From: an uncultured delta proteobacterium
GTDB lineage: Bacteria; Desulfobacterota; Binatia; UBA9968
Direction: 5' to 3'
DNA length: 64,000 bases
Assembly (NCBI GenBank): GCA_963727625.1
Contig: CAVSHR010000003.1
Coordinates: forward strand, 160,001 to 224,000
Part shown: positions 39,409 to 55,075 of the stretch, in pieces
Layout: the number at the start of each line of letters is the position of its first letter
Position numbering within the stretch: position 1 is the first letter of the stretch
Made by a program: the position numbers and the translations under genes
The notes under the pieces: model-generated
Databases searched by the model: none
What the model was told of the DNA's origin: nothing
The model's input: only the letters and a program-made list of their open reading frames with translations

Positions 39409-40242
39409 TCAGGCAGTCGGCTCTGCCTGGATCGCTGTTGCCTGGGGCTTTTCCCCTGTTGCCTTCGTGGCGCGCTCCAGGGCGAAGATGCTTGCGCCCA
39501 GTGCGCCGACGAAATGAGAATCCGGACTGACGTTGAGCTTCATACCGAGTTTTTCTTCGAGCGCACGCACCATGCCGATGTTGAGCGACACGCCGCCGGT
39601 GAAAGTCACTTCAGGTTCAATGCCGACACGCCGCACCAGTGAAATGGTCCGCGCGGCGATAGCGCTGTGCACGCCGCCGAGGATATCCTCGGTTTTTTTG
39701 CCTTGGGCGAGGTAGGACATGATGTCAGACTCGACGAAAACCGTGCAGACGGTGGTCAGGCGCACGGGATTTCGCGCTTGGAGCGAGATATCGCCGATAT
39801 CGCCCAAGCCCATGCCCAAAGCCTCGGCGGCGCTGGCAAGAAATCTTCCGGTGCCGGCGGCGCACTTGTCGTTCATGACGAAGTCCTTGACATCGCCGTC
39901 GATGCCGATTTTGATGCCCTTGGCATCCTGGCCGCCCATGTCGATCACCGTGCGCGTGTTGGGAAAAAGATAACTCGCGCCGCGCGCATGGCAGCTGATC
40001 TCGGTGATCTGGGCGTCGCCGAAGGTCACTTTGTAGCGGCCGTACCCGGTGCCCACTACGTAAGCGACATCTTCCCGTTTGACTCCCGATTTTTGCAGCG
40101 CTTCGACGAAGCACCTTTCGGCGGCCCGGGTGACGTAAGCGCCGGTGTCGGTCAAGGCTCGGGCGATGATCTCAAACTTGTCGTTGAGTATAATTCCTTT
40201 GGTCTGAGTCGAGCCAACATCGATCCCTGCGGCGTAAATCAT
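39409..40242 (-). CDS. bcrA: Class I aryl-CoA reductase ATPase subunit, short BcrA/BzdQ-like
   Basis: [49 protein letters not shown]. Confidence 0.75.
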
Positions 40243-41540
40243 GCTGCGCCTCCTGCCTCCGCGCTGGCACGGACCATTTTCTTGTGCTCCAATGATTCGA
40301 AAAAAGCGTCGATGCGGTTTTTGAGCTGGGCTTCGGAAAAATATCGCGGATCTTCGATATCCGATTCGATCAACAGAGTGGGAACGTTTAGTTCTTTGGT
40401 GAAATATTCACGCATGTCGCCCTGTCCCGCGGAAAAGAGGCGGCAGCTTTTGACCGAGTGAATCACCAGAGCGTCGGCATGCCACTCTTCGACATAACGG
40501 CGGATCTGCTGGTAGCGCTGCAAGAAGTTGCGGTTGGTGACGTTCCACTGGAGCATATGCTGGGCGATGGATTCCAACGGGTGGTTGGTATCATGCCGGA
40601 AGCCGAATTCCCACAGGCCGCCGACAGTGGAGTAGGTCGAGGCCACCGCCACCGCCCCCCATTTGGAAAACATATCTCGAAATGTCCGCAGGTACGGCCA
40701 AGGCGGCGGTCCTTCAATGACGAAGCGGAAACGCTCCTCAGGTAACGGCCCGGTTCCAAGCCGCACTTTTTCTTCCATCTCTTTAAGGGCAGTTTCAAAA
40801 AATCTCACTCCCTCTTCGGTTCCCCTCAGGCAATAGAGCGGCGCCATCATAGTCACCGAATCGAAATAGGCGTCGAAGGGAGAAGGAGTATTCTTGGTTA
40901 GCCCCTTGATGCGCGACCACATCTCGCCGGTTTCGCTCGAGCGGCGGACGATTTCTTTCAGCCGCGCGTAGTCGAGCTTCTTTCCTGTCAATTTCTCGCA
41001 GATCTCGATCACCTCTTCAAGCTGGCGCACGACGTAAGTAATGTCCTCTGGGCTCGGTTGTCCGGATGGATCGCGCGAAAATGGAATGTCGAGGTTGTAC
41101 AGTTGCCCGTCGCAGTACTCGGCCAGGTGCTCGAACCACTGGAGGTAGACATTGCAGCCCACGTAGTTGCAGAGGATCAGCGACGGCAGCGGAATCGTTG
41201 CGAAGGGGGTCTTGCGGTCGCCGAGAAACATGCCCACATCCGCTTTCACATAGGCGCAGTTGTCCATCGAGTAGCCGAGTTCCTCGGCCTTTTGGATAAA
41301 CGGCAGGGCGCTCTTTTTGACCGCAAGCTGCAGGGCATCGATCTCCGGATAGATTGGGATCATGTCGAACGCTTGGATCAATTCCACCGGGTTGCCGCTG
41401 ATCAGCATGTAGACGGCTTTGCCCTCGCCCTTTTCCGCGGCCCGGGTGACGCGCTCGAAGTAGCGCCCCATCATGTCTTTTTGCAGCAGATGCATCTGAC
41501 CCTGATACTGAGTTTTTTCGGCTACAGCTGTTTCCGCCAT
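40239..41540 (-). CDS. bcrB: Class I benzoyl-CoA reductase catalytic subunit B-like
   Basis: [63 protein letters not shown]. Confidence 0.82.
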
Positions 41541-41549
41541 AAGGTTCTC

Positions 41550-42707
41550 CTAATCGAAAAGCATTGACTCGACAAAGGTCTCGACCTCGGTACGCGCTTT
41601 ATCGAAGATCCACATCTTTTCCTCAAACTCGAGGCATAGGTGCGGAATACCCTCTTTTTCCAGCGCCCGTTTATAAAGTGCGTAGTCGAACAGCGCTGGC
41701 TCGCAGAATTTTGCTGCCAGGATTAATACCGCGGTGGCGCCGGTCTCCTTGAATTTGTCGATGAGATGTTTGGATTTGGGCTCGCGGGTATCGTGTTTGA
41801 CGCCGGAATAAACGCTTTGATTGATGTAAGCATCGGCGATGTTACGCAGGGGATCGCCTTCGGTCGAGATATCTCCAGGAAACCAGCGCCAACCAACGAG
41901 GAAGTCATCGTCCAGAATGTAGCAGCCGGCGGCCTCCAGGCCGTCGAGCAGCTCGATGGGCGGCTGCTCGCAGAAAGAGCCTTCGAGGACGACTTTGATC
42001 CTATCCTTGGGCTTTTCGTGGCGTTGGCGCAGTTCCGGCAGCGCTTCGTTGAGTATGGCGATGTGTTCCTGTGGCGGGAGCAGGGTGCCGACGCGGGTTA
42101 AGACGTAACACTCTACAGTGGAAAGATTCTGCGGCGTCTCTCTGCGGATGGCATAGAGTTCCCGCATCAGGCGACGCTGTTCATTATACAGCGAGATACT
42201 ATTTCTCAAGCCATCGTCGGTGATCTTTTTTCCGGACAATTGCTCATAGCTGGCGGCAAGCCTTTTGTACTCAGAGATCAAGTATTCCACGGTATGGGGG
42301 GAAGTCATGTTCTGGGGAAAGTGTATGTATTCCACCATCAGATCGGGAAAGTTTCTTTTGAAAACGCTGCCGAGATTGCGCGCCGGGTCGCAGATCGAGT
42401 GAAAAACCATGCCGTCGAGAAACTTGAGCCTCTCGGTGAGTCCCAACTCAAGGGTGCTTTTGACAATGGAACAAATGAAGGATTGAAAACGAGAATCGGC
42501 GTGGGCGATCTCCAGCCGGTTGCCGGCGCCGATGATGCCGACAGGCAGCATGCCCGCGGCATGAATGAGTTCGACGGGAGTGTAGACCGGATAGCACCCG
42601 ACCATTTTCTTATCGGGATTCGCTTTCTTCGACTCTACGGCGAGATCGAGTGGCGAAATCTCAAGGGGCTCGCGGTACCGAGAAACAAAATTCTCGACAG
42701 TTGTCAT
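41550..42707 (-). CDS. bcrC: Class I benzoyl-CoA reductase subunit C-like
   Basis: PVYTPVELIHAAG, FQSFICSIVKSTLELGL, SICD, GSFCEQPP, KFCEPALFD. Confidence 0.82.
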   Translation of the reverse strand: MTTVENFVSRYREPLEISPLDLAVESKKANPDKKMVGCYPVYTPVELIHAAGMLPVGIIGAGNRLEIAHADSRFQSFICSIVKSTLELGLTERLKFLDGMVFHSICDPARNLGSVFKRNFPDLMVEYIHFPQNMTSPHTVEYLISEYKRLAASYEQLSGKKITDDGLRNSISLYNEQRRLMRELYAIRRETPQNLSTVECYVLTRVGTLLPPQEHIAILNEALPELRQRHEKPKDRIKVVLEGSFCEQPPIELLDGLEAAGCYILDDDFLVGWRWFPGDISTEGDPLRNIADAYINQSVYSGVKHDTREPKSKHLIDKFKETGATAVLILAAKFCEPALFDYALYKRALEKEGIPHLCLEFEEKMWIFDKARTEVETFVESMLFD

Positions 42708-43616: not shown

Positions 43617-44705
43617 TTAATTGAGAAACTTCATTTCGATGAAATCGACCAGAGGACCGATGCGATCCGGTTGAAAATTCGGGGCTGTGGCTGCCGGCGA
43701 TTTCGAGCCCACCGTCGCAACAACTAAATCACTCGCCCTGCATAGACGTTTATCGTCGTGCCCCGACAGCACTTCGATCTTTGGCCCAGGTTCCTCGTGA
43801 AACCCTTCCACTAAGACGATGTCGTGGCCACTAAAATGAGGCAAGATTTGCTCCAGTGAATTGCGATCACTGGCGGCGCGAAATAGCGCAACGTGAGCCG
43901 GTGCCATCAGCGCAACCGTATGGGCACCCGCTCGCCGGTGGCGCCAGGTGTCCGTGCCCACAGAGTCCACTTCGGCGGGAAAGTCGGAATGATGATGTTT
44001 GACAGTGCCAACCCGATATCCGCGCGCGGTTAACTCGGCGACGAGTTTTTCGATGAGCGTGGTCTTGCCGACTTTCTTAAAGCCGACGACATGTAAAACT
44101 CGGGCGGGGACTGCGGTTCGTGAGCGGTCGGGCGGCTGGGACGCCCCGTTGGACTGCGCGCATGGAATGCAGAGCGTTTGTCCTGCCAGGTGAATTTCCC
44201 GACGGAGATTTATTCCCTCGCCGCAAGAGTCACAATAGACCCTTGGGCTACGAAAGCCCGGCATGTTCTCTTCGGGGATTTCTACCCAGGCTGGCTGAAT
44301 CCCAAAGAGTAAATCCTCGGGCATGACGGTGTAAGCTTGCTTTTGCGCCTCCCTGGGATTTGCCGCATTGGGCGCATAGGCGGCAGCATGGTCTCGCGCA
44401 TTGTCTTTGGCGAGAACTCGAACCGCTTTCTGCGCTGCCGTGTTTATAAAGGTTGCCGCCATCTTGCCATAGTCGAGAAACTTCAGGGTTCGCTTGCCCA
44501 GCGAGCAGCCGGTCACGGCTTGCACTGCGTCGGTGGCGCAACGATCCATCTCGACGTAAACAATCAGTTTTTTGCAGCCGTGTGGTTCGTCGATACCGAC
44601 TTCACGGCAACCTACCATGGCCATGCGCACGCCGAGCACTTGCCCGGCGCAGTGATGTCCGTGAAGAGAGGACGATTCCTTCAGCAGTTCAGTCAATGGG
44701 CGCAT
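43617..44705 (-). CDS. FmdE-family domain + zinc finger + MobB fusion
   Basis: HGHHCAGQVLG, CATDAVQAVTGCSLGK, DYGKMAATF; CDSCGE...LCIPC; then GFKKVGKTTLIEKL, VKHHH, DTWRHRRAGA, VLVEGF. Confidence 0.88.
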   Translation of the reverse strand: MRPLTELLKESSSLHGHHCAGQVLGVRMAMVGCREVGIDEPHGCKKLIVYVEMDRCATDAVQAVTGCSLGKRTLKFLDYGKMAATFINTAAQKAVRVLAKDNARDHAAAYAPNAANPREAQKQAYTVMPEDLLFGIQPAWVEIPEENMPGFRSPRVYCDSCGEGINLRREIHLAGQTLCIPCAQSNGASQPPDRSRTAVPARVLHVVGFKKVGKTTLIEKLVAELTARGYRVGTVKHHHSDFPAEVDSVGTDTWRHRRAGAHTVALMAPAHVALFRAASDRNSLEQILPHFSGHDIVLVEGFHEEPGPKIEVLSGHDDKRLCRASDLVVATVGSKSPAATAPNFQPDRIGPLVDFIEMKFLN

Positions 44706-44780: not shown

Positions 44781-46292
44781 TCATGACCGACTTTTCTCAA
44801 GTCGCAACTGTTGCCAGACAGAGACCGCTTTTTGGCCGTTGCGATCGCTCTGCGAGCCATCCCAAACGGCGAATGCCACCGGGACCGTCTCGCCCGGTGT
44901 GAGCTGACGATCTCGGGAACTCTCGGTTCTCAAGGGCCGGATCATCACCACGCGCCACTGACCTTCGCGCCAGACCGCGCTGCCGCGAATCTGTTGGTCA
45001 TCGAGGGGTTGTGGGGTCAAAGTGCCGAAGCCCTCGGCGTTCAATTCAGTTATACGGGACTGTGGTACCACCGAGTACAGTCCGTTCCCCGCAGCGCGCG
45101 CCGTCGCATAAACGGGGTCCGAGTCGAATGGATAGTCGTCTATTGCTAAGTTGGGATATGCTTTGGTGAAAGAATCGGCAATCGCTTTCAGTCCATTATC
45201 CGCGCGCCAGTACCAGATGTTGACGCCCGCGGTTTTTTCACCCATCGTGAAGCTCGGTGTTTTCCCGCTGAGGGGGAACTGAGCGGCGACAGCGTCGGCG
45301 AATGCTTGCGGTCGGGCCGCCGAAAAATCTGCGGTGGGATCATCCCATTCGATACATAAAGCCAAATCGCTTACTGTGTACAGGGCCCGAATCCGGAGGG
45401 AGCGAATAGTTTTTTCTCGCGCCCACAGCGTCATCAGTTTGACTTCGATAGGCGACACGCGCTCCCAGTCAGGGTTGAACGGATCCGCGGGATCGATGGC
45501 TGTTCGGGCGCGCTTGGCCGTGATTAAGACCGAAGGGTTGGCCAGGGCAGGCTTAACTGGCGTGCGCCCAAGAGACTGCACATAGGCGACCAGTTCCCAG
45601 GACTGTTCCGGAGTTAGCGAGTCGCTGAACACGGGCATCGGTGTGCCACCGACTCCGACTTGAATCACCTTGTAGATATCTTGCGGGGTCGCGCCCTGTT
45701 TGAAAAGGTCCGGGCGTGTGAGGTCGCGCGGGCGGATGGGATATCCCCATTCATCTCGAAGGTCTGCAACCGAGGAGCCATCGCCTCGTCCGCCCGGCCC
45801 ATGACAGGAATCACAACCGGCATCGACATAGAGTTGCTTACCCGCTGCGACCATCTTCGGTGTGAGGTGTGGCAGGGCGGGAATCTTGACCGGCTGGCCC
45901 GGCTTGGAAAAGGCGGCGGAAAAGGTTTTGATGTAGTCCACCAGGGCCAAGCGATCGCTTGGACTGAGATTCGCCCAAGCGGGCATGGCGGTCCCGGGTA
46001 TTCCCCGGGTGATCGTGCGCAAAAGATCGGCATTCGTCGGTGTAGTCGGAGTCGACCGAAACTTAAAAATTCCGCGGGTAAAATCACGCGGTTCGGGAAA
46101 AATGAGATAGGCTCCCGGCCCGTCTCCACGGCCCTCCGCTCCATGGCAAACCGCACAGTTGGCGGAATAAAGTTCCTTGCCACGGGTTAGGCTTATTGTC
46201 GGGCGATTTATTTTCTGCGCCGCCAACGCCAACGTTGATGCGAACACCGCGACCACAAGGCCGATCATCCAATTGAACTTCATGCGGATCAC
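44781..46292 (-). CDS. Dihaem cytochrome c fused to an EbdC/NxrC-like haem b domain (gamma subunit)
   Basis: Signal peptide; CAVCH and CDSCH, each followed by PRD..G...GTxMP; C-domain EWDDPT, DAVAAQFP, FTMG (Met), AFAVWDG...RNGQK (Lys). Confidence 0.87.
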   Translation of the reverse strand: MIRMKFNWMIGLVVAVFASTLALAAQKINRPTISLTRGKELYSANCAVCHGAEGRGDGPGAYLIFPEPRDFTRGIFKFRSTPTTPTNADLLRTITRGIPGTAMPAWANLSPSDRLALVDYIKTFSAAFSKPGQPVKIPALPHLTPKMVAAGKQLYVDAGCDSCHGPGGRGDGSSVADLRDEWGYPIRPRDLTRPDLFKQGATPQDIYKVIQVGVGGTPMPVFSDSLTPEQSWELVAYVQSLGRTPVKPALANPSVLITAKRARTAIDPADPFNPDWERVSPIEVKLMTLWAREKTIRSLRIRALYTVSDLALCIEWDDPTADFSAARPQAFADAVAAQFPLSGKTPSFTMGEKTAGVNIWYWRADNGLKAIADSFTKAYPNLAIDDYPFDSDPVYATARAAGNGLYSVVPQSRITELNAEGFGTLTPQPLDDQQIRGSAVWREGQWRVVMIRPLRTESSRDRQLTPGETVPVAFAVWDGSQSDRNGQKAVSVWQQLRLEKSRS

Positions 46293-46318
46293 GCTGCTCC
46301 CTCCTTTAATTTGCCACT

Positions 46319-47074
46319 TCAGTGCCGGGTCGAATCCTCCATTCCAGCACCGCAGGCCGCAACACATGAAAAGTTAGTCCCTTCGGGCTCAGCGGAGGCG
46401 GGTGCCGGCTCGAGATCGTTCGCCCCAAGATCAACACCGACATCGTGACAGTGCGCCTTTACGCAATCTGCCGTGATATCAGCGATTAATTCGAAAATGC
46501 CTCCACCAGCCCGGTCGCGGAGCTGTTTGAGAAAGCTCGGCGCCCATCGCCCAAGGTGGTCCCTTAAAAAACCGATTCCGGCCTGGCCACAAAGGTCGGC
46601 ATTCTCCCCCCACTCATGAAGTAGTGCATAGGCTTCTTTCAGCGCGAGTACGTGCATGAATTCGAGCTCGACGGCGATGTGGTCCGGTCGCTCCCGCCGA
46701 GTGTCGGACGGCTCCAGGCCAAATGCCCGGTAGAAACCGCTCACGTCCGCCAGACACTGAGTTTCCTGAAAAACATGATGGGTGCCATAGTCGGCTTCGT
46801 ACGGGCGTAGCTCGCCCGCCGCCGTATGGCCGAAGATCGCTACATGCTCGCCCACGAATTGCTCCGCCGTCATCGCCTGAAGTCTTTCTGGCAAACATGT
46901 AAAGCCCCTAGCGCTCCAGCCTAGAACGGAACGAACGCGTTCCAAGTCTCCTGGCGACGAATCGTGAAGCAGCTGCCACGATGCACTGTCAGGGTAGACA
47001 TAGAGCGTGGAGAGGTAATGATAGAGGGCGCTCCGTGCGTGCGCCTGTTCGATTCGTCGGCTTATGGTGTGCAT
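46319..47074 (-). CDS. TorD/DmsD-family molybdoenzyme chaperone
   Basis: PYEADY, LADVSGFYRAFGL, ERPDHIAVELEFM, FLRDHLGRW. Confidence 0.9.
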   Translation of the reverse strand: MHTISRRIEQAHARSALYHYLSTLYVYPDSASWQLLHDSSPGDLERVRSVLGWSARGFTCLPERLQAMTAEQFVGEHVAIFGHTAAGELRPYEADYGTHHVFQETQCLADVSGFYRAFGLEPSDTRRERPDHIAVELEFMHVLALKEAYALLHEWGENADLCGQAGIGFLRDHLGRWAPSFLKQLRDRAGGGIFELIADITADCVKAHCHDVGVDLGANDLEPAPASAEPEGTNFSCVAACGAGMEDSTRH

Positions 47075-47088
47075 CGCGGGGTCTCCGT

Positions 47089-48364
<1,276 letters not shown>

Positions 48365-48372
<8 letters not shown>

Positions 48373-48637
48373 CGTGACCTCCCCGGGATTCACTCTTAAA
48401 ACGTTTGCGCACGCGCTCGATGAGGCTTTGCACATAGGCCTCACCTCGCGCACGGTAGATCGAATGGGCGCCGGCATAAAAAGGATCGCGGAAGAGACCC
48501 AGCAAACGTTCGCGGTCGTAGCCGAGCCAGACGAATTCCTCCACGAAACATTCGGCCATCACCTCCGTGTCTCCTTCGGGCACGGAGACTCGAACCAGCT
48601 CCATCGGGTCGTCGTCTTCAAGGGGTTTGCGTGCCAT
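48365..48637 (-). CDS. Small acidic accessory protein between the alpha and beta genes
   Basis: 90 aa, EDDDPMELV...MAECFVEEF..LG...LFRDPFYAG; overlaps the beta start. Confidence 0.75.
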
Positions 48638-48699
48638 GCTTCATCCGTCCTTAATATGGCTGGTTTTCTTACGTCCGGCCGTCTCGCGGTCCAGTGCGG

Positions 48700-51600
48700 T
48701 TATTTGTCATTTACCTTGATCATCTCTCCGCCGAGATAGCGCGTCATGAAATCCGCTTCGGCGCCGGGAGTCCGGCCGGTGCGTGCCGTTTCCCAAATTC
48801 CCTTGCCTTCGAGCCCGCCGTCCTCGGCCTTGACGATCCGGATGAGCGTTTCCTTCGGCACCGTATTGACTGCGTGGTTGTCGACGTCGAAGCCGAACAC
48901 GAAGCCCACGCTTCCGGTTTTCTTGTGGAACAGCGTGTCGGTCTGGTGCATCGGAGGAAGCCAGCCGCGCGTGATGGATTGATGCGAGCCGTAGCGATAA
49001 GAGGCTTGGTAACCGGTTTCGGGCGCCAGCGCGCGTTTGTCCGGACGGGTTTCGTGAGCCCGGACGGTTCGTTCCGTGGCAATCCAGCCGGTGTGCTTTA
49101 GAACCGTGAAGTGATAGGGCAGGGCCGGATTGAACTTCACTCTAACCATGCAGCGGAAAGCGCGGTAACGAGAGTCATCGGGCTTCCAGCCGACGTAGGG
49201 CCGGTCCACCGGGTTCGCGTCAACGTAGACGTAGTCGCCGTCATGGAGACCCATTGCCATCCCGGCTTGCGGGTTTAGTTGGATCTGGCGGTCGGCGACG
49301 CCGGGAGCCCGCTTGTCCATGCGATAGGGGTCGCCGAAATTGCACGACCAGATCCAGTTCCAGTCCACCGTCGACCACGACGAGTGGGTTGAATGGCGGC
49401 TCTTAGGAGTGGAGCAGAAAAAGCGAAATCCCTGAGTCCAAAGCGGATTGACGCTCTTCTTCACCTCGGACCACGCCATCTTGACATTGCGCACCGAGCG
49501 CAGGTCGGCGTCCATGGCATCCAGTGGAATACCGTAGTTCTCTGGGCGAACGAAGGGACTGGTCGAGACGATGACGTTGGGGAGATAGGGCGTCGCTTCG
49601 GGTCCCTCGCGGTGGACGATCAGGTTCTCCCCGTACTCGATCGCTTCGGGGAGATCGCAGTAGGCATTGAGCCGTCCCGTATCGGTGTAAAACGGGACAT
49701 CATCGTGAACTTGCTCCCAGAAAGGCACCCGGGGATAAGTACGGAACAGCATGAGCGCTGTTCCTGGCGAACCGTAGCCCCCCTTGATGATTTTATCGAC
49801 CCCGTACGACTCACGCTGGTTCCGCGTCGTTGTCGAGCTGTCGAATACCCGTTGGAGATAGACCTGCGGCTTTTTCTCCGAGACGTATTTCCAATAATCT
49901 CGGAAGCGGTGATCGCCGAATTTATCGCTCAGGGCCGCGGCCACGCCGGCGAAAATCGCCGCATCGTCCTTGGAGTCGTACAGCGGTTTGATGCCCTCGC
50001 CGCCCCAGATCTGGATGAAGGGATTGGAGCAGGAGCCGCCGCACTCGATCGTTTCAAATTCCATCCACGAATTGGCCGGCAGCACCAGGTCGGCGTATTC
50101 CGCGGAGCCGGTCCATTCGATTTGTTGATCGACGATCATGTCGACCTTCGGCAACACGTTGACGATCAGATGATAAACCCACTTGGACTGGTTGATGAAA
50201 TTTGCGTTGTTGTACCACATCATCTTTGTCGGACAGGGAAGATGGGATTTGCCGGTAAAGACTTTTCGTCCTTTGGGAGTGTCTACAGAGAGGATTTTTT
50301 CCCCGTAACCCCAGTACGAAGGTTCCTCTGCTTCGGTCGTGTCGCGCAACTGTTCACGCGTCAAACGCGCCTTTTCGTCCAGTACCGGATGAAAAGGATC
50401 TTCGTGCACGTAGGCGCCCACTCCAGGACCGCTCCACGGCGAGGCCTGAAACAGCGCGCCTTTGTAATTGCCGGCCCAGGTAAAGGCGCCGGCGCCATGC
50501 ACTCCGATGTTCCCGGTCAGGATCAGCGGCAGGTAGGTGGCGCGGTTATGAAGCGTGGCGTGGAAGTAGTGGTTGATCCCTTCACCGAAGTGAATAGCCG
50601 CGGGCTTGATCGTGGCAAGGTCCTTGGCGAGTTGGTGCACGACCTGCTTTTTCGCTCCGGAAATCTGTTCGACGGTGTCGAGGTCATAGTCTTTCAGATG
50701 CGCTTTGTAAATCGACCATACGGTCATTACTTCGACCGCCGTGCCGTCGATCAACCGCGTTTTGCCTGTCCATTCGAGTTTTGGATCAATGCCTTTGGCC
50801 ACGAGCCTTCCGCCCACGTCATCCCTCGTTACCGCCTTGAGACTCTGGCTCTTTGCGTCGAAGACAACGAAATCACCAAGTTTGTCGTACTGTTCGCGGC
50901 TAAGGTTTTGCAGTTTGAAGCTCGGGCCGTTGGGATCAAGGCTTGCTTTGTAATCTGGAAAGAGTTCCTGAGCATGTAATCGCTTGAGAGTATCGGTTCG
51001 AATCAGGAACGGCATGTCGCTAAAATGCTTGACAAAGTCGGCATCGTACCAACCCTCGTCCATGAGGATTTTGCTGAGGCCGAGGAACACGGCGGTGTCT
51101 GATAGACCGGGCCGCACCGGAATCCACGTATCACATTTGGTGGCGGGGGCGTTGTACTCTGGTGAAATGACGTAGATTTTACCGCCTCGCTCCATGATCT
51201 CAGTCATCCAGTGGGAATCGGCCATCTTATTTTCAATGAGATTTTTCCCGACTTGAATATGCAGCTTCGTGAAGCGCAGGTCATTAAAATCACAGTCCGA
51301 TGTTTGCAGACCGTGGACGAAGGGTTGTCCCGGCGCCTGGTCGCCGCGCCAGGTGTATTCATTCCAATCCCGCGACCCGAGCGCCTTCGCTTCAGGCACG
51401 CCGCGGACGTGATGATCGAGCAGCGCCATCATGTTAACGAATCGGTAAATGCCGAACTTTCCGAGCACACCGTGAATGGGCAGGTTCGAGCCGAACTTCA
51501 TCGTTCGCGTGCCGGCCTCGTTCCAATGCGTGAGCATTAAAGGATCATAGCCGTCGGCGAGCAGGCGCTGCTTGCCGCTCTCACTGCTATAGGTCTTGGC

Positions 51601-52170
51601 GATCGCCGCGAGGCCTTCGGCCGCGTAGCGAGACGCCTCTTTCCATGAGACGCGCACAAACTGATCATTGCCACGATCATCGAAACGGAATTTCTGACGA
51701 AGCTCAGGGCGGTCCGAAAGCGAAGGGAAATTCGCGTCAGCCCATTCTTTCCATCCCTTGCGGATGACAGGCCCTTTGAGACGGTGAGGTCCGTAGACGC
51801 GCCGTTGAAACGTGTAACCCTTCAAACAGCCTCGCGGGTTCCAGTTTACCGATGCTTTGTTACCATAGAGATCGCCGTAATCGCCGTTGGTGTATTCTTG
51901 TTCGCTGCGCAGAACGATGCCGTTGCGAACGAAAGCCCGGAGCCTGCACATATGAGTGTCGTTAGGGCCGCACACCCAAGTGAAGCTTCGGTCATAGCGA
52001 TACTGATCACGGTAGATTTTTTCCCATTCGCGATTGGGATAGAAGGCCAGCGGATTTTCCACGCCGGCGATCGGCTGGAGGAGACGTAGAGCCAGAGCGG
52101 CCCGGCTAAAAAGAAGACCGGCGCCCGCCGTCGTTCCCGTCTTGAGAAAATCGCGTCTGGTCAGATCCAT
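48700..52170 (-). CDS. nxrA: Tat-exported Mo-bis-PGD alpha subunit, periplasmic NXR-like
   Basis: TRRDFLK Tat motif, NPL..YP.REWEKIYRDQY, FS0 motif CGPNDTHMC...PRGCLKG, Asp ligand in YTWRGDQ, GEGINHYFH, TPKSRHSTHS. Confidence 0.85.
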   Translation of the reverse strand: MDLTRRDFLKTGTTAGAGLLFSRAALALRLLQPIAGVENPLAFYPNREWEKIYRDQYRYDRSFTWVCGPNDTHMCRLRAFVRNGIVLRSEQEYTNGDYGDLYGNKASVNWNPRGCLKGYTFQRRVYGPHRLKGPVIRKGWKEWADANFPSLSDRPELRQKFRFDDRGNDQFVRVSWKEASRYAAEGLAAIAKTYSSESGKQRLLADGYDPLMLTHWNEAGTRTMKFGSNLPIHGVLGKFGIYRFVNMMALLDHHVRGVPEAKALGSRDWNEYTWRGDQAPGQPFVHGLQTSDCDFNDLRFTKLHIQVGKNLIENKMADSHWMTEIMERGGKIYVISPEYNAPATKCDTWIPVRPGLSDTAVFLGLSKILMDEGWYDADFVKHFSDMPFLIRTDTLKRLHAQELFPDYKASLDPNGPSFKLQNLSREQYDKLGDFVVFDAKSQSLKAVTRDDVGGRLVAKGIDPKLEWTGKTRLIDGTAVEVMTVWSIYKAHLKDYDLDTVEQISGAKKQVVHQLAKDLATIKPAAIHFGEGINHYFHATLHNRATYLPLILTGNIGVHGAGAFTWAGNYKGALFQASPWSGPGVGAYVHEDPFHPVLDEKARLTREQLRDTTEAEEPSYWGYGEKILSVDTPKGRKVFTGKSHLPCPTKMMWYNNANFINQSKWVYHLIVNVLPKVDMIVDQQIEWTGSAEYADLVLPANSWMEFETIECGGSCSNPFIQIWGGEGIKPLYDSKDDAAIFAGVAAALSDKFGDHRFRDYWKYVSEKKPQVYLQRVFDSSTTTRNQRESYGVDKIIKGGYGSPGTALMLFRTYPRVPFWEQVHDDVPFYTDTGRLNAYCDLPEAIEYGENLIVHREGPEATPYLPNVIVSTSPFVRPENYGIPLDAMDADLRSVRNVKMAWSEVKKSVNPLWTQGFRFFCSTPKSRHSTHSSWSTVDWNWIWSCNFGDPYRMDKRAPGVADRQIQLNPQAGMAMGLHDGDYVYVDANPVDRPYVGWKPDDSRYRAFRCMVRVKFNPALPYHFTVLKHTGWIATERTVRAHETRPDKRALAPETGYQASYRYGSHQSITRGWLPPMHQTDTLFHKKTGSVGFVFGFDVDNHAVNTVPKETLIRIVKAEDGGLEGKGIWETARTGRTPGAEADFMTRYLGGEMIKVNDK

Positions 52171-52377
52171 CCTCGCCCCCTTAGCTAGCCAAATTTTTTC
52201 ATTGACCGATCGTGGTCTCAGCCGTCCAAAAAACCCGGGCAAACCGAACGGCGCCGGACTTTATTGAGCCTTTCGAGCCGCGAGCTTTGCCAGGGTTGTG
52301 GCTTCGAACAGCCCAGAGTTTCATCTGGGTCGTACAGGAGTCAACGGACCACTTTAGTCCTTTAAGCTGTCGAAGGA

Positions 52378-52392
52378 GCAAAATCGGTACCA
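52378..52392 (-). promoter_or_regulatory. Sigma-54 promoter of the molybdoenzyme operon (about 195-nt leader)
   Basis: TGGTACCGATTTTGC. Confidence 0.65.
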
Positions 52393-52679
52393 ATACTAAG
52401 GACAATGTTTTCCCTCTGATTGTTTGTCAAAGCCGGAGAGAATTTTTCATGAAATAGGAAAATCCCGGTTGGATTTCCAAATTTTGCGACCTCGTTTTCG
52501 TGCGTCAGACAAATAGGTTCAAATCTTCTGATCACGATTCCTGAAATGAATTTGGGGTAATATCTTTATTCTGGAAAAACGAAATATTTTCGCCACGCCC
52601 AGATGGCCACGTACGCAGTTCAAGCCGGGTCAGCGTCAGAGCAAGATCAATCCGCCTCGACTCCTTGCTGGGTTTAGCA

Positions 52680-52966
52680 TTTGTTTTTGTTTCCTCGCCA
52701 GCCTTCACCGTGCCGTCTTGGCGAGCTTGCCGAGCGTCTCGTGCCAAACCTCGATGGTATGATTGCCCGCCGGAATGTCGCTGATCGTGAAATTGCCGCC
52801 CCTGTCGGTCGCAGCGATGTAGGGGTGATCGGCGACAACTCGACCAGACGGGGGTGCCGCCTAATGATGTCGCGAGCGATTCGGTGAGAGCCTGAGCGCC
52901 AAATGAAAAATACGATGCAGCGACCAACGCGATGAATAGCGAAACACTCCGCATTGCCCGATTCAT
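52680..52966 (-). pseudogene. Internally deleted secreted protein with a carboxypeptidase-regulatory-like domain
   Basis: Signal peptide MNRAMRSVSLFIALVAASYFSFGAQA; another frame gives HPYIAATDRGGNFTISDIPAGNHTIEVWHETLG. Confidence 0.6.
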
Positions 52967-53238
52967 CGCTAGCCCCAGTTTAGTAAGGGATGATTTTCCT
53001 CATCGAACAAATTCAAGACTATTGACGAACCGCGGATGTCCTAGGAGGCTACAGCGAGACCGGCAGAACATTCCCGTTTTTAGGAAGGCGAATTCTCTTC
53101 TTTACCAAACAATGGAAAAACCAATTGTGAACTCTGCAAGGGAAGGTGTCTAGGAACCATTCTTGATTACGTCGCGGACGCCCTTATTGCTAACAATAAT
53201 CTCGAGATTTTGACACTTCTCTAAAACAAACAACTGTG

Positions 53239-53253
53239 TGGCATGTAATCTGC
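53239..53253 (+). promoter_or_regulatory. Sigma-54 promoter, implying an almost leaderless transcript
   Basis: TGGCATGTAATCTGC ends 14 bp before the ATG at 53268; no Shine-Dalgarno. Confidence 0.55.
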
Positions 53254-53267
53254 ACAGCTTCATATCC

Positions 53268-54458
53268 ATGGATTTTAATGAGCGGCCGTTTACCGTCATT
53301 TGGGAAACGACACGGGCTTGCGATCTCGCATGCATTCACTGCCGCGCGGAAGCCCGCGCGCGGCGCGATCCGGAGGAACTGAACTTTGCGGAAGTCCAAG
53401 GACTGATCCAAGGCATCAAAGAGTTCGGTTCGCCCCATCCGATCTTTGTCTTAACCGGCGGCGATCCGGCTAAGCGTCCGGATATTTTTGACATCATCAA
53501 GTACGCTCGAAGCGAAGGTCTCCGCGTGGCCATGACGCCGTCAGCTACGCCGTTGATCACGCGCGATACGGTTCGCCGTTTCGCCGAGGCGGGACTGGTT
53601 CGTCTCGCCGTGAGCTTGGATGGCAAAGATGCCGCCGCCCACGACGGCTTTCGAGGCGTCCATGGTTCATTTGAGCGGACCCTGAAAATTCTCGATTGGT
53701 GCCGCGATTTCGGTCTGGAGTCGCAGATCCACACGACTGTAACCCGCCATGTGTTGGCCGATTTACCGGCGGTCGCGGCGATGATCGCCGAGCGCGGTAT
53801 CAAACTCTGGGCGCTCTTTCTGCTCATCGCAGTTGGCCGGGCGGCGCGCCCGGAGATTCGCCGGCTCAATATCACTGCGCGCGAGGTCGAGTCACTGTTT
53901 CATTGGCTATACGATCTGAACAAATCAGCCCCGTTTGATGTCACGCCGCGCGAAGGCTATCACTACCGGCGCGTGCTATTGCAGCGACGCGCGGCTGAAT
54001 TGGCCATGCCCGTGGAGCAACTTTTCACCGAGGCATACGACAGGTCATGGACACCGTCAGAGGTCGCGCCAAACGCCAAGGCGACCAAGATTCTGCGCGC
54101 CCCCCTCGGCGTCAACGATGGTCGAGGCGTCGTATTCATTTCTCACACTGGTGATGTTCAACCAAGCGGCTTTTTGAATCTCGCCGGAGGCAATATTCGC
54201 TCTCAGTCATTGTCGGAAATCTACCGATCGTCAGATTCGTTTATCCGCGTGCGCGACTACACGCAGCTCAAAGGCAAGTGCGGCGTGTGCGAGTTCAAAT
54301 CGATCTGTGGTGGTAGCCGCTCGCGAGCTTACGCGATCACCGGCGATCCCATGAGCAGCGATCCCTACTGTGTTTATCAGCCGGCGGCTTGGCAAGCTCG
54401 GCACTCCACGGCAAGGGCTCAAGCCGAAAATCGCGGGCGGCTGGGACACGCGAACTAA
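53268..54458 (+). CDS. Radical SAM/SPASM protein, Ahb/NirJ haem-biosynthesis-like
   Basis: VIWETTRACDLACIHCRA, LTGGDP, HDGFRG, GVNDGRG.VFISH.G.V.PSGFL, GKCGVCEFKSICGGSRSRA...DPYC. Confidence 0.85.
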   Translation: MDFNERPFTVIWETTRACDLACIHCRAEARARRDPEELNFAEVQGLIQGIKEFGSPHPIFVLTGGDPAKRPDIFDIIKYARSEGLRVAMTPSATPLITRDTVRRFAEAGLVRLAVSLDGKDAAAHDGFRGVHGSFERTLKILDWCRDFGLESQIHTTVTRHVLADLPAVAAMIAERGIKLWALFLLIAVGRAARPEIRRLNITAREVESLFHWLYDLNKSAPFDVTPREGYHYRRVLLQRRAAELAMPVEQLFTEAYDRSWTPSEVAPNAKATKILRAPLGVNDGRGVVFISHTGDVQPSGFLNLAGGNIRSQSLSEIYRSSDSFIRVRDYTQLKGKCGVCEFKSICGGSRSRAYAITGDPMSSDPYCVYQPAAWQARHSTARAQAENRGRLGHAN

Positions 54459-54490
54459 GAGTTAGAAAAGCAGCCAAAAGGAGAAAGAAT

Positions 54491-55075
54491 ATGGAACCTA
54501 CGACCTCCCATGGTTGCGCTGGCAGCCATCAAGCCGAGAAACCGACGGCGATTCTCAGCGATGAGCATCGCATCATCGAACGGGTGCTCGGCGCCGTCGA
54601 GAAGCTGGCGAAAGGTTCGGTAGGCCCACTGGACCCTTGGAAGAAGGCGCTCGATTTTATCCGCCGCTTTGCCGATCAGTGCCATCACATCAAGGAAGAA
54701 AAGGTTCTGTTTCCGGCCATGGAGGCGCATGGGATTCCGAACGAAGACGGGCCCATCGGAATGATGCTGATGGAACACGAGGAAGCGCGATCGTACGTGC
54801 GAGCCATGCTCGCGGCAATTACTCTGATCGAAAGCAACAACGAGGCCGGTAAAACAAGCCTTATCAGCAGCGCGCAAGCCTACTGCCGTCTACTGCGCGA
54901 GCATATCCAAAAGGAAGACGAGATTCTGTTTCGCATGGCTGACGAGGCGATTCCCGCCGAAGAACAGAAAAAGCTCTCGGCAGCTTTCGCTCAGCACGAG
55001 GCCGAAGAAATGGGCGCGGGAGTCCATGATAAATATCTGAAGATCGCGGCGGAATTGGAAGGCGTCACGAGATAA
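54491..55075 (+). CDS. Hemerythrin-domain protein
   Basis: EH..I, HHIKEE.VLFP, EHEEAR, HIQKED.ILF. Confidence 0.9.
   Translation: MEPTTSHGCAGSHQAEKPTAILSDEHRIIERVLGAVEKLAKGSVGPLDPWKKALDFIRRFADQCHHIKEEKVLFPAMEAHGIPNEDGPIGMMLMEHEEARSYVRAMLAAITLIESNNEAGKTSLISSAQAYCRLLREHIQKEDEILFRMADEAIPAEEQKKLSAAFAQHEAEEMGAGVHDKYLKIAAELEGVTR

What the first reader, a model, noticed from the sequence alone, without database searches (positions are those of the whole stretch)
44781..52170. Periplasmic NXR-like molybdoenzyme with a divergent active-site region in an apparent heterotroph
Seen: Tat-exported alpha subunit with the CxxxDxxxC FS0 motif, and a beta subunit very like Nitrospira/anammox NxrB but with Cys (CTMAC) where Nitrospira has Asp. 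Near the Mo ligand it reads EYTWRGDQAPGQPFVHGLQT and TMKFGSNLP, where I recall NYTWHGDQ and KxRxGM in characterised NXRs; the NarG-like Y/D/QT residues are kept. Inference: a separate branch that could be a nitrite oxidase in an unrecognised nitrifier, a periplasmic nitrate reductase, or an enzyme for another oxyanion. Direction and substrate cannot be read from sequence.
Basis: partly seen in the sequence, partly recalled or inferred. Interest (0 to 1): 0.8.

Follow-up and report, generated by a model that had tools for sequence, protein, structure and literature searches.

The report
Variant nitrite/nitrate oxidoreductase operon, Binatia
An uncultured soil bacterium that looks like a heterotroph carries an intact operon for the exported molybdenum enzyme that interconverts nitrite and nitrate, and its odd active-site residues turn out to mark a very large, uncultured and biochemically untested sister group of the enzymes of the known nitrite oxidisers checked here.

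Summary
The quoted residues are in the sequence. The operon (minus strand) encodes a Tat-exported alpha, a beta, a NarJ-type chaperone, a gamma (two c haems plus haem b) and FmdE-MobB. Alpha matches Kuenenia NxrA (PDB 7B04) end to end at 1599 bits.

The "divergent" residues are not peculiar to this gene. They define a discrete "R-type": Gly227-Ser-x-Leu-Pro231, His233, Glu271, Arg275. It occurs in 120 of 120 closest proteins and 68 of 80 related species-genome loci, all MAGs, with no mixed forms.

Kuenenia, Nitrospina gracilis, Ca. Nitrohelix and more distant paralogues have the "H-type" (Arg227-Gly-Gly-Met, Asn271, His275). R-type is therefore derived, and it is monophyletic (support 99-100).

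The 98% complete genome (6.3% contamination) gave no hit for RuBisCO, CODH/ACS, NarG, NapA, NirK or NrfA. Its only chlorite-dismutase-family gene is HemQ. It has two aa3 oxidases and a second, cytochrome-bc-linked NXR-like operon.

Best reading is a reversible nitrite/nitrate oxidoreductase. I favour nitrate reduction (about 0.45) over nitrite oxidation (about 0.3), but direction is not shown.

This scan met the operon type before (look-alikes in 21 other windows), and papers from 2020 and 2023 report it. I found the residue signature in no paper searched.

The parts
52377..52392 (-). sigma-54-type promoter-like site TGGTAC-N5-TTGCT, about 207 to 222 nt upstream of the alpha start codon
   Evidence: It is the only match to TGGYAC-N5-TTGCW on either strand of the 64-kb window. 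0.06 matches are expected by chance, and 5 of 100 shuffles gave one or more. It has the right orientation. With this strict pattern it is not found at the matching place in the two Binatia relatives L012 and L013. Function is inferred, not shown.
48700..52170 (-). alpha subunit (1156 aa): Tat signal, FS0 motif C67-x3-D71-x3-C75 with N70, Mo-ligand Asp277, R-type residues G227 S228 N229 L230 P231 H233 E271 R275
   Evidence: PF00384. 1599.5 bits over residues 1-1154 to 7B04_B, Kuenenia NxrA. D277 equals Ks Asp275, and N70/D71 equal Ks Asn70/Asp71.
47089..48372 (-). beta subunit (427 aa), four Fe-S cluster ferredoxin-type subunit
   Evidence: PF13247 and TIGR03478. 639 bits to 7B04_A, Kuenenia NxrB, over the full length.
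46319..47074 (-). NarJ/TorD-type assembly chaperone (delta), about 251 aa from MHTISRR
   Evidence: PF02613 at 70 bits. TIGR03482 at 95 bits, below its cut-off of 152. The start codon was chosen by reading the ORF.
44781..46283 (-). gamma subunit: Sec-type signal (MKFNWMIGLVVAVFASTLALAAQ), two class-I cytochrome c domains (CAVCH, CDSCH), then an EbdC/NxrC-type haem-b domain
   Evidence: PF09459 plus two cytochrome c domains. Residues 320-525 match 7B04_C (NXR-C) at 95.6 bits, and the positions of its Met155 and Lys305 haem ligands are kept. Residues 61-267 match 6H5L_B, a Kuenenia cytochrome, at 167 bits. The start at Met29 of the ORF is my choice.
43617..44705 (-). FmdE-domain plus zinc-ribbon plus MobB fusion (molybdopterin guanine dinucleotide cofactor supply)
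   Evidence: PF02663, PF01258, PF03205 and TIGR00176. Homologues lie beside the operon in 8 of 80 related loci.
53238..54458 (+). divergently placed radical SAM/SPASM gene (TIGR04053, AhbD-like); possible accessory gene, association weak
   Evidence: TIGR04053 at 450 bits, above its cut-off of 395. Homologues lie within the flanks of 13 of 80 related loci. A hemerythrin gene follows (about 54389-55075, PF01814); hemerythrin homologues occur in 2 of 80 loci.

Best explanation
This is a complete operon for a periplasmic enzyme of the nitrite oxidoreductase (NXR) family that is linked to cytochrome c.

Shown:
- The Tat-exported alpha subunit keeps the Mo-ligand Asp (D277).
- It keeps the substrate-facing Asn70 and the 3Cys/Asp71 FS0 cluster.
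- It keeps the NXR-type rather than NAR-type residues (Ks Glu527, Asn312, Lys917).
- Beta aligns end to end with Kuenenia NxrB, the four-cluster subunit, and keeps the one cluster motif I checked.
- Gamma keeps the Met/Lys haem-b ligands and adds two c-type haems.

Inferred: nitrate and nitrite are interconverted at the Mo centre. Electrons run through FS0, FS1-4, haem b and the two c haems to or from the periplasmic cytochrome c pool.

Shown: it belongs to a derived, monophyletic 'R-type' subfamily. There, the loop arginine of the ancestral form (R227 in K-x-R-G-G-M) is lost, and an arginine appears two residues before the Mo ligand (H275R) together with N271E and L233H.

Inferred: the second shell of the Mo site has been rebuilt, which probably shifts anion affinity or redox tuning rather than changing the substrate.

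Inferred and weakest: in this non-autotrophic, aerobic-capable Binatia bacterium the enzyme mainly works as a nitrate reductase fed from quinol via a bc-type complex and cytochrome c when oxygen is scarce. Nitrite oxidation is its reverse capacity.
For: Family:
- 1599.5 and 639 bits, full length, to Kuenenia NxrA and NxrB, and 95.6 bits to NxrC.
- At 50% clustering the best full-length representative, at 59% identity, is H-type.
- Catalytic and cofactor residues are kept.
- Kuenenia NXR is bidirectional in vitro, with nitrate Km 14 uM (passages).

R-type signature:
- 120 of 120 top hits and 68 of 80 species-genome loci are R-type. 12 of 80 are H-type. There are no mixed forms.
- 15 positions discriminate 77 R rows from 46 H rows.
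- Three outgroup paralogues at 39-45% identity carry the H-type states at 227, 228, 230, 271 and 275.
- R-type needs one change of state on the tree, with support 100 and 99.

Heterotroph with an anaerobic flavour:
- No hit for RuBisCO or CdhC in a genome that is 98.45% complete with 6.3% contamination.
- The window encodes beta-oxidation, the glyoxylate shunt, a 2-hydroxyacyl-CoA-dehydratase-type cluster and a 2-oxoacid:ferredoxin oxidoreductase.
- A radical-SAM AhbD-like gene and a hemerythrin gene are adjacent.

Comparative:
- Of 40 R-type genomes, 23 showed no NarG, NapA-like or bc-linked paralogue.
- 9 of 40 have NrfA. 4 of those 9 have no other candidate nitrate reductase.
- Only 3 of 39 other R-type genomes have a RuBisCO hit above 400 bits, all three Pseudomonadota.
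Against: Direction is not shown by anything here.
- The genome already has a second NXR-like operon with its own cytochrome b, multihaem cytochrome c and NAD(P)-type flavoprotein. That operon is the more obvious quinol-linked nitrate reductase, so the R-type enzyme may have a different job.
- No NirK, NirS or NrfA above cut-off was found in the genome. Nitrite made by nitrate reduction would therefore have no respiratory sink.
- The cofactor design is the NXR one: Asp-ligated FS0, Met/Lys haem b and cytochrome c output. Two aa3-type oxidases are present. That fits nitrite oxidation equally well.
- No FNR-type box lies in the promoter region.
- No cultured R-type organism was found.
- MAG completeness was not reported for the compared genomes, so their absences are weak evidence.
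- The geometry of residues 227 and 275 could not be checked. The model was poor and no coordinates were available.
Confidence: 0.45

Rival explanations
1. It is the same enzyme, used mainly in the oxidative direction. The heterotroph oxidises nitrite to nitrate in the periplasm and passes the electrons through the c haems of gamma to its aa3 oxidases. That would give supplementary energy or nitrite detoxification, while the bc-linked paralogue does the nitrate reduction.
For: - NXR-type rather than NAR-type residues and cofactor ligands.
- Two aa3 oxidases.
- No respiratory nitrite reductase found, so nitrite needs another fate.
- A separate bc-linked NXR-like operon in the same genome suggests a division of labour.
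- Authors of MAG studies proposed nitrite oxidation for this enzyme group (passages).
Against: - No carbon-fixation marker found.
- All reference nitrite oxidisers and the anammox enzyme that I could test are H-type, not R-type.
- R-type sits mostly in lineages not known as nitrifiers.
- 9 of 40 R-type genomes carry NrfA.
- Only 7 of 40 R-type genomes have the paralogue, so a division of labour cannot be the general rule.
Confidence: 0.3
2. The rebuilt second shell (Arg275, Glu271, His233 and the Gly-Ser-x-Leu-Pro loop) has changed the substrate. The R-type enzyme would then act on another oxyanion or small molecule, such as chlorate/perchlorate, selenate or an as yet unknown substrate.
For: - Eight of the 15 discriminating positions cluster in two segments next to the Mo ligand.
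- The residue two before the ligand is Tyr in NarG and PcrA, His in H-type NXR and Arg here. The position therefore varies between enzymes of different specificity.
- All curated NCBIfam models score below their cut-offs.
Against: - 1599 bits to a proven nitrite/nitrate enzyme over the whole length (my estimate from that alignment is a little over 60% identity).
- Asn70, Asp277, Glu530, Asn314 and Lys923 are all kept.
- No chlorite dismutase. The single PF06778 gene is a HemQ equivalog at 323 bits against a cut-off of 253.
- The nearest other-substrate structures score only 176 bits (PcrA) and 139 bits (EbdA).
Confidence: 0.1

Closest known systems
Kuenenia stuttgartiensis NXR-ABC (PDB 7B04; Chicano et al. 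2021, PMC8387239)
   Same: - Full-length alignment of alpha, beta and the haem-b part of gamma (1599.5, 639 and 95.6 bits).
- Tat signal, Asn70, Asp71-ligated FS0 and the Mo-ligand Asp.
- Ks Glu527, Asn312 and Lys917 are kept.
- Met/Lys haem-b ligand positions are kept.
- The enzyme is proven to run both ways (passages).
   Different: - Ks has His273 and K-G-R-G-G-M-G. The window has Arg275 and K-F-G-S-N-L-P, plus 13 further clade-discriminating positions.
- Ks NXR-C has no fused c-haem domains.
- No NXR-T tubule subunit was looked for or seen here.
- The host is not an anammox bacterium.
Nitrospina gracilis and Ca. Nitrohelix vancouverensis NxrA (WP_237097077.1, WP_237097795.1, QPJ66041.1, QPJ64446.1; names)
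   Same: Same family and length, 54-55% identical over the full length, with the same FS0 Asp motif.
   Different: They are H-type at all the motif positions inspected (NYTWHGDQ; K-Y-R-G-G-M-G) and form a separate clade. Their hosts are nitrite oxidisers: N. gracilis grows chemoautotrophically on nitrite and CO2 (passages), and calling Ca. Nitrohelix a nitrite oxidiser is my recall.
'Novel Nxr-type' genes of Planctomycetota MAGs from the Oslofjord tunnel (PMC10732223) and of Planctomycetota/Verrucomicrobiota MAGs from a drinking-water plant (10.1101/2020.05.19.103440)
   Same: Seven loci from OFTM-labelled MAGs (L025, L027, L037, L041, L062, L065, L091) are R-type in my analysis. Six of them were long enough to be in the tree and fall in the same clade. 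Those authors also could not assign a direction (passages).
   Different: In the passages I read, those papers do not describe the residue signature. They lean towards nitrite oxidation. The window is from Binatia and has gamma downstream rather than upstream.
E. coli respiratory nitrate reductase NarGHI (PDB 1Q16)
   Same: Same superfamily, with an Asp Mo ligand. Y/D/QT align. Ser228 and Pro231 of the R-type loop coincide with the Ser and Pro that MAFFT aligns to them in NarG.
   Different: - Only about 100 bits, and TIGR01580 scores 129 against a cut-off of 1084.
- NarG is cytoplasmic, has a His-type FS0 motif and a NarI membrane subunit, and has Tyr two residues before the ligand.
- Ala, Thr and His stand in place of Ks Glu527, Asn312 and Lys917 (passages).
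The genome's own second NXR-like operon with cytochrome b, multihaem cytochrome c and a flavoprotein (G000 contig C5; locus L110)
   Same: Tat-type alpha with the C-x3-D-x3-C motif, 39% identical to the window's alpha, with beta, an EbdC-like gamma and a chaperone.
   Different: - H-type residues at the discriminating positions.
- A shorter beta of 375 aa.
- Encoded together with a bc-type module.
- Earlier notes of this scan read that operon type as a quinol-linked nitrate reductase (not tested here).
- The published description of Thermogutta terrifontis, a NarG-like gene beside bc1 genes (passages), resembles it. I could not fetch that sequence.

Membership tests
Periplasmic NXR of the Nitrospina/anammox (reported also Nitrospira) type | Tat-exported alpha subunit of about 1150 aa | tested here: met
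   MDLTRRDFLK start, 1156 aa.
Periplasmic NXR of the Nitrospina/anammox (reported also Nitrospira) type | FS0 bound by three Cys and one Asp (C-x3-D-x3-C), with the neighbouring substrate-facing Asn | tested here: met
   C67 G P N70 D71 T H M C75 aligns with Ks Cys67, Asn70 and Asp71.
Periplasmic NXR of the Nitrospina/anammox (reported also Nitrospira) type | Asp ligand of Mo, and the NXR-versus-NAR residues Glu527, Asn312 and Lys917 (Kuenenia numbering) | tested here: met
   D277, E530, N314 and K923.
Periplasmic NXR of the Nitrospina/anammox (reported also Nitrospira) type | Second-shell residues shared by Kuenenia and Nitrospina: His two residues before the ligand, and the K-x-R-G-G-M loop | tested here: not met
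   The window has Arg275 and K-F-G-S-N-L-P. Whether these residues are needed for the family's activity is unknown.
Periplasmic NXR of the Nitrospina/anammox (reported also Nitrospira) type | Haem-b gamma subunit with Met/Lys ligation | tested here: met
   The alignment to 7B04_C keeps the Met of 'MG' and the Lys of 'NGQK'.
Periplasmic NXR of the Nitrospina/anammox (reported also Nitrospira) type | Placement inside the clade of enzymes from proven nitrite oxidisers or anammox bacteria | tested here: not met
   It falls in the R-type sister clade (support 100 and 99). Nitrospira and anammox sequences were not in the tree.
Periplasmic NXR of the Nitrospina/anammox (reported also Nitrospira) type | Nitrite-oxidising activity in vivo or in vitro | not testable with these tools
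   No culture, no RNA run and no assay were available.
Cytoplasmic respiratory nitrate reductase NarGHI | Score over the curated narG/narH cut-offs, a His-type FS0 motif and a NarI membrane subunit | tested here: not met
   TIGR01580 scores 129 against 1084, and TIGR01660 scores 187 against 524. FS0 has Cys/Asp. There is no NarI-like gene in the operon.
Type II DMSO reductase family (TIGR03479/03478/03477/03482) | Scores over the curated subfamily cut-offs for alpha, beta, gamma and the chaperone | tested here: inconclusive
   These are the best-scoring models for all four proteins, but all score below cut-off: 312/985, 262/481, 151/170 and 95/152.
(Per)chlorate reductase systems (PcrAB/ClrABC with chlorite dismutase) | Close relation to PcrA/ClrA and a chlorite dismutase gene in the genome | tested here: not met
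   PcrA scores 176 bits against 1599 for NxrA. The only PF06778 gene is a HemQ equivalog.

The most novel reading that the evidence does not exclude
The R-type clade would be a functionally distinct enzyme class, not just a phylogenetic branch. On this reading, the move of the active-site arginine (lost at 227, gained at 275, paired with Glu271) retunes the Mo site. Common soil and sediment heterotrophs (Binatia, Acidobacteriota, Planctomycetota and others) would then oxidise nitrite aerobically without being autotrophs. That would be a large unrecognised source of nitrate. The residue pair 227/275 would also give a sequence marker that separates two working modes of NXR-like genes in metagenomes.
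Probability: 0.2. Interest if true: 0.8.

Novelty: new member of a known kind. Interest (0 to 1): 0.42.

Why it matters
NXR-like genes are routinely counted as nitrification or nitrate-reduction markers in metagenomes, although sequence does not tell the direction.

The commonest form in the collections searched here differs from the characterised enzymes that I could check at a fixed set of residues beside the molybdenum. That gives a concrete, testable handle.
- One can ask whether R-type and H-type enzymes differ in kinetics, redox tuning or direction.
- R-type genes should not be scored as nitrite oxidisers by homology alone.

For this particular window the result is more modest. It is a typical member of that clade, in a heterotroph that also has a second, bc-linked enzyme of the same superfamily.

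Tried and rejected
- Structure: the AlphaFold2 model of alpha from a 25-row alignment was poor (mean pLDDT 48.7, active-site segments under 50). No coordinates reach the script box. The distance between residues 227 and 275 and the Mo site could therefore not be measured, and the second fold job was not spent.
- Supplement of Chicano et al.: two held files had no hit for Arg225, His273 or the substrate tunnel. The SI PDFs, which may list active-site residues, are not held.
- Naming cultured R-type carriers: the 80 best genome loci are all MAGs. Cluster look-ups of 10 R-type proteins gave no isolate name.
- Naming Nitrospira or anammox references: cluster look-ups of 10 H-type proteins gave none. 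Nitrospira and Thermogutta terrifontis sequences were not obtained.
- The last protein search, on the paralogue, gave only MAG names.
- FNR-type box: none in the promoter region. Window-wide counts are near chance.
- The sigma-54-like site is not conserved under the strict pattern in relatives.
- Expression: no RNA holder was listed for the stretch, and the best DNA holders hold under a fifth of the sampled words.
- ATP-citrate-lyase domain search: no hit, but the control genomes were silent too, so it says nothing.
- The PF02239 (NirS) search gave only weak repeats of about 20 bits. I did not take these as NirS.
- Considered and rejected: a pseudogene or misassembly, because all frames are intact and colinear with 7B04.
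- Considered and rejected: a uniquely divergent enzyme, because the residues are clade-wide.
Full report
**1. What is there**

On the minus strand lie five co-directional genes:
- alpha, 48700-52170 (1156 aa);
- beta, 47089-48372 (427 aa);
- a NarJ/TorD-type chaperone, 46319-47074;
- gamma, 44781-46283;
- an FmdE-zinc-ribbon-MobB fusion, 43617-44705.

Gamma has a Sec-type leader, two CxxCH cytochrome c domains and an EbdC/NxrC haem-b domain (PF09459).

A sigma-54-type -24/-12 motif (TGGTAC-N5-TTGCT, 52377-52392) lies about 210 nt upstream of alpha, on the right strand. It is the only match in the 64-kb window, with 0.06 expected. With this strict pattern it is not conserved in the two closest relatives. 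I treat it as a lead.

**2. Family**

- Alpha aligns end to end with Kuenenia stuttgartiensis NxrA (7B04_B, 1599.5 bits). The next structures are PcrA (176 bits), EbdA (139) and E. coli NarG (about 100).
- Beta matches NxrB at 639 bits.
- The haem-b part of gamma matches NXR-C at 95.6 bits.
- The dihaem part of gamma matches chain B of 6H5L at 167 bits. A preprint passage names that entry as a Kuenenia HAO structure. That chain B is its dihaem redox partner is my recall.

From passages of Chicano et al., Asp275 binds Mo, Asn70 faces the substrate, FS0 has three Cys plus Asp71, and the haem b has Met155/Lys305 ligands. The window keeps all of these (D277, N70, D71, and the Met and Lys positions).

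A review lists Glu527, Asn312, Lys917 and Asp71 as NXR residues where NarG has Ala, Thr, His and Cys (passage). The window has the NXR residues.

All curated NCBIfam models stay below their cut-offs.

**3. The 'divergent' residues define a clade**

Counts:
- All 120 of the 120 best hits in the 5.8-billion-protein collection (66-89% identical) have YTWRGDQ and K-x-G-S-[NSC]-L-P-x-H-G.
- Of the 80 best loci from one-genome-per-species contigs, 68 have this 'R-type' and 12 have the 'H-type' (NYTWHGDQ, K-x-R-G-G-M-G). None is mixed.
- Met74 goes with R-type in 66 of 68 loci and with H-type in 0 of 12.

Verified H-type references:
- Kuenenia.
- Fourteen NxrA copies from genomes related to a Nitrospina MAG. 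Six of these were found by exact look-up in one cluster, whose named entries include N. gracilis and Ca. Nitrohelix vancouverensis.
- All 120 of the 120 sequences around the 50%-cluster representative P0121.

Discriminating positions. Across 77 R rows and 46 H rows, 15 alignment positions discriminate: 227, 228, 230, 231, 233, 239, 271, 275, 571, 653, 656, 661, 683, 775 and 1004 in window numbering.

Polarity:
- Three outgroup paralogues at 39-45% identity, including this genome's own, carry the H-type states at 227, 228, 230, 271 and 275.
- R-type is therefore the derived form.
- It lost the loop Arg227 and gained Arg275, Glu271 and His233.

Position 275 is two residues before the Mo ligand. 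It aligns with Tyr220 of NarG in PDB numbering (my recall of that numbering) and with the corresponding Tyr of PcrA.

Trees. FastTree on 127 rows gives the R-type as one clade of 77 with support 100. IQ-TREE (LG+G4, 59 rows) gives SH-aLRT 99 and a single change of state. The window groups with three Binatia sequences.

Limits of the trees:
- I left out partial sequences under 1100 aa.
- I sampled every sixth and every fourth protein hit.
- Nitrospira and anammox sequences are not in the trees.

**4. Who has it, and what is in print**

The 80 loci are all MAGs. They come from Binatia, Acidobacteriota, Planctomycetota, Kiritimatiellota, Pseudomonadota, Chloroflexota, Ignavibacteriota and other phyla.

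One R-type operon sits on a 10.8-kb contig of a MAG labelled Nitrospina. That MAG has no H-type copy. The 11 related genomes with a hit have the H-type wherever the hit covers the site (14 of 15 copies), out of 31 genomes searched. This may be mis-binning or gene transfer.

No isolate name appeared among the names or among 10 R-type clusters looked up.

Papers, as passages only:
- NXR-like genes clustering with Nitrospira, Nitrospina and anammox were reported from Planctomycetota and Verrucomicrobiota MAGs in 2020.
- 'Novel Nxr-type' genes were reported from Planctomycetota MAGs in 2023, with direction left open. Seven loci from those OFTM MAGs are R-type here.
- A 2025 atlas counted 665 periplasmic Nitrospira-clade NxrA/NarG sequences in 97,227 genomes.

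My searches found no paper that describes the R/H residue split. Supplements and figures were not visible to me.

This scan has met the operon type before. There are look-alikes in 21 other windows, and several follow-ups called it an ordinary member of a common clade. A word search of the scan's notes for the residue signature found nothing.

**5. The organism**

Earlier notes name it Candidatus Binatia. The closest alpha genes are from Binatia MAGs at 81-87% identity.

The assembly has 6.6 Mb in 15 contigs and is 98.45% complete with 6.3% contamination.

Not found:
- RuBisCO large subunit;
- CdhC;
- NarG or NapA;
- NirK, where the only hit is a multicopper oxidase;
- a convincing NirS;
- NrfA above cut-off.

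The ATP-citrate-lyase search is uninformative because its controls were silent.

Present:
- two aa3-type oxidases and a 767-aa haem-copper oxidase that matches no NCBIfam model;
- a HemQ-type member of the chlorite dismutase family.

The window itself encodes acyl-CoA dehydrogenases, an enoyl-CoA hydratase, a 2-hydroxyacyl-CoA-dehydratase/BcrAD-type cluster, a 2-oxoacid:ferredoxin oxidoreductase, isocitrate lyase, malate synthase, TctABC, MoaA and a MoeA-like gene.

On contig C5 there is a second NXR-like operon whose alpha is 39% identical to the window's. Its order is: flavoprotein, cytochrome b, four-domain cytochrome c, alpha, a 375-aa beta, an EbdC-like gamma, chaperone. Earlier notes read this operon type as a quinol-linked nitrate reductase. 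I did not test that.

**6. Comparison of 51 genomes (40 R-type including this one, 11 H-type)**

| Feature | All | R-type | H-type |
|---|---|---|---|
| Canonical NarG over cut-off | 5 of 51 | 4 of 40 | 1 of 11 |
| NapA-like at E <= 1e-100 | 8 of 51 | 8 of 40 | 0 of 11 |
| bc-linked paralogue (56% identity or more) | 9 of 51 | 7 of 40 | 2 of 11 |
| NrfA | 10 of 51 | 9 of 40 | 1 of 11 |

- 23 of 40 R-type genomes show no other candidate nitrate reductase.
- 4 of the 9 R-type genomes with NrfA have only the R-type enzyme to supply nitrite from nitrate.
- RuBisCO above 400 bits occurs in 3 of 39 other R-type genomes, all Pseudomonadota of the basal R subclade.
- Completeness of these MAGs was not reported, so absences are weak evidence.

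**7. How it most likely works**

Shown:
- an intact NXR-family alpha-beta-gamma enzyme with its chaperone and a cofactor gene;
- export signals;
- conserved catalytic and cofactor ligands;
- a conserved, derived second-shell signature.

Inferred: nitrite/nitrate interconversion at the Mo centre, with electron exchange to cytochrome c through the fused c haems.

Not shown: direction.

I favour nitrate reduction under low oxygen (0.45) for these reasons:
- the non-autotrophic host;
- the anaerobic-type neighbours;
- the NrfA co-occurrence;
- the fact that the R-type is often the only candidate nitrate reductase.

Nitrite oxidation stays a serious rival (0.3) for these reasons:
- the NXR-type cofactor design;
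- the aa3 oxidases;
- the missing nitrite sink;
- the presence of a separate bc-linked enzyme in the same genome.

A change of substrate is less likely (0.1).

The loss of Arg227 together with the gain of Arg275 and Glu271 could be a relocation of the pocket's positive charge. It could equally be a net loss of charge that shifts anion affinity or Mo potential. I could not test the geometry.

**8. Verdict**

The 'separate branch' idea holds.

The gene is a typical member of a very common clade that is already reported and remains uncharacterised. The operon itself is therefore not new.

What is worth carrying forward is the clean R/H residue split beside the molybdenum and the co-residence of two NXR-like systems in one heterotroph.

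Noticed in passing
own genome, contig C5 (locus L110:6793-18795, minus strand): A second NXR-like operon. Its order is: GltD-like Fe-S flavoprotein, 657-aa cytochrome b, 557-aa four-domain cytochrome c, 1224-aa Tat-type alpha (39% identical to the window's alpha, H-type residues), 375-aa beta, EbdC-like gamma, chaperone. The same paralogue type occurs in 9 of the 51 genomes compared.
   Followed up: partly
window 52532-52966 (minus strand): The 144-aa ORF upstream of alpha has a signal peptide. It seems to shift frame near 52860 into a 51-codon frame ending ...GNFTISDIPAGNHTIEVWHETLGKLAKTAR. That could be a frameshifted or decayed small exported protein. No homologue of the 144-aa ORF lies in any of the 80 related loci.
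   Followed up: no
locus L012, about 400 nt upstream of alpha: In the closest genome relative (a Binatia MAG, alpha 87% identical), the DNA directly upstream of alpha reads, by my own translation of the stretch printed, like an Rrf2-family (NsrR/IscR-like) regulator with three Cys. No family search was run on it. The window has no such gene at that place.
   Followed up: no
loci L040/L092 (genome G001): A MAG labelled 'uncultured Nitrospina sp.' carries an R-type operon on a 10.8-kb contig and no H-type copy. Its relatives with a hit carry the H-type. This could be mis-binning or horizontal transfer.
   Followed up: partly
genomes G079, G080, G081 (loci L084, L086, L089): Three Pseudomonadota MAGs of the basal R-type subclade have a RuBisCO large subunit (over 420 bits), and two of them also have canonical NarG. 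They are the best places to look for an autotroph that uses an R-type enzyme.
   Followed up: no
window 39409-42707 (minus strand): A BcrAD/BadFG-type ATPase and two HGD-D subunits (2-hydroxyacyl-CoA dehydratase or benzoyl-CoA-reductase-like) lie just downstream of the operon. Next to them are an SDR, an amidohydrolase and beta-oxidation genes. This is an anaerobic-style acyl-CoA pathway in a genome that also has aa3 oxidases.
   Followed up: no
own genome, contig C12 (locus L011:1312-3615, minus strand): A 767-aa haem-copper oxidase family protein (PF00115, 185 bits) matches no NCBIfam model at E <= 1e-10. Its length is like that of quinol-dependent NO reductases, which is my recall.
   Followed up: no
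window 53238-55075 (plus strand) and 13 of 80 related loci: A TIGR04053 radical SAM/SPASM gene (AhbD-like) recurs near NXR-like operons of both residue types. Here a hemerythrin gene follows it. It may be a maturation or oxygen-sensing accessory.
   Followed up: partly
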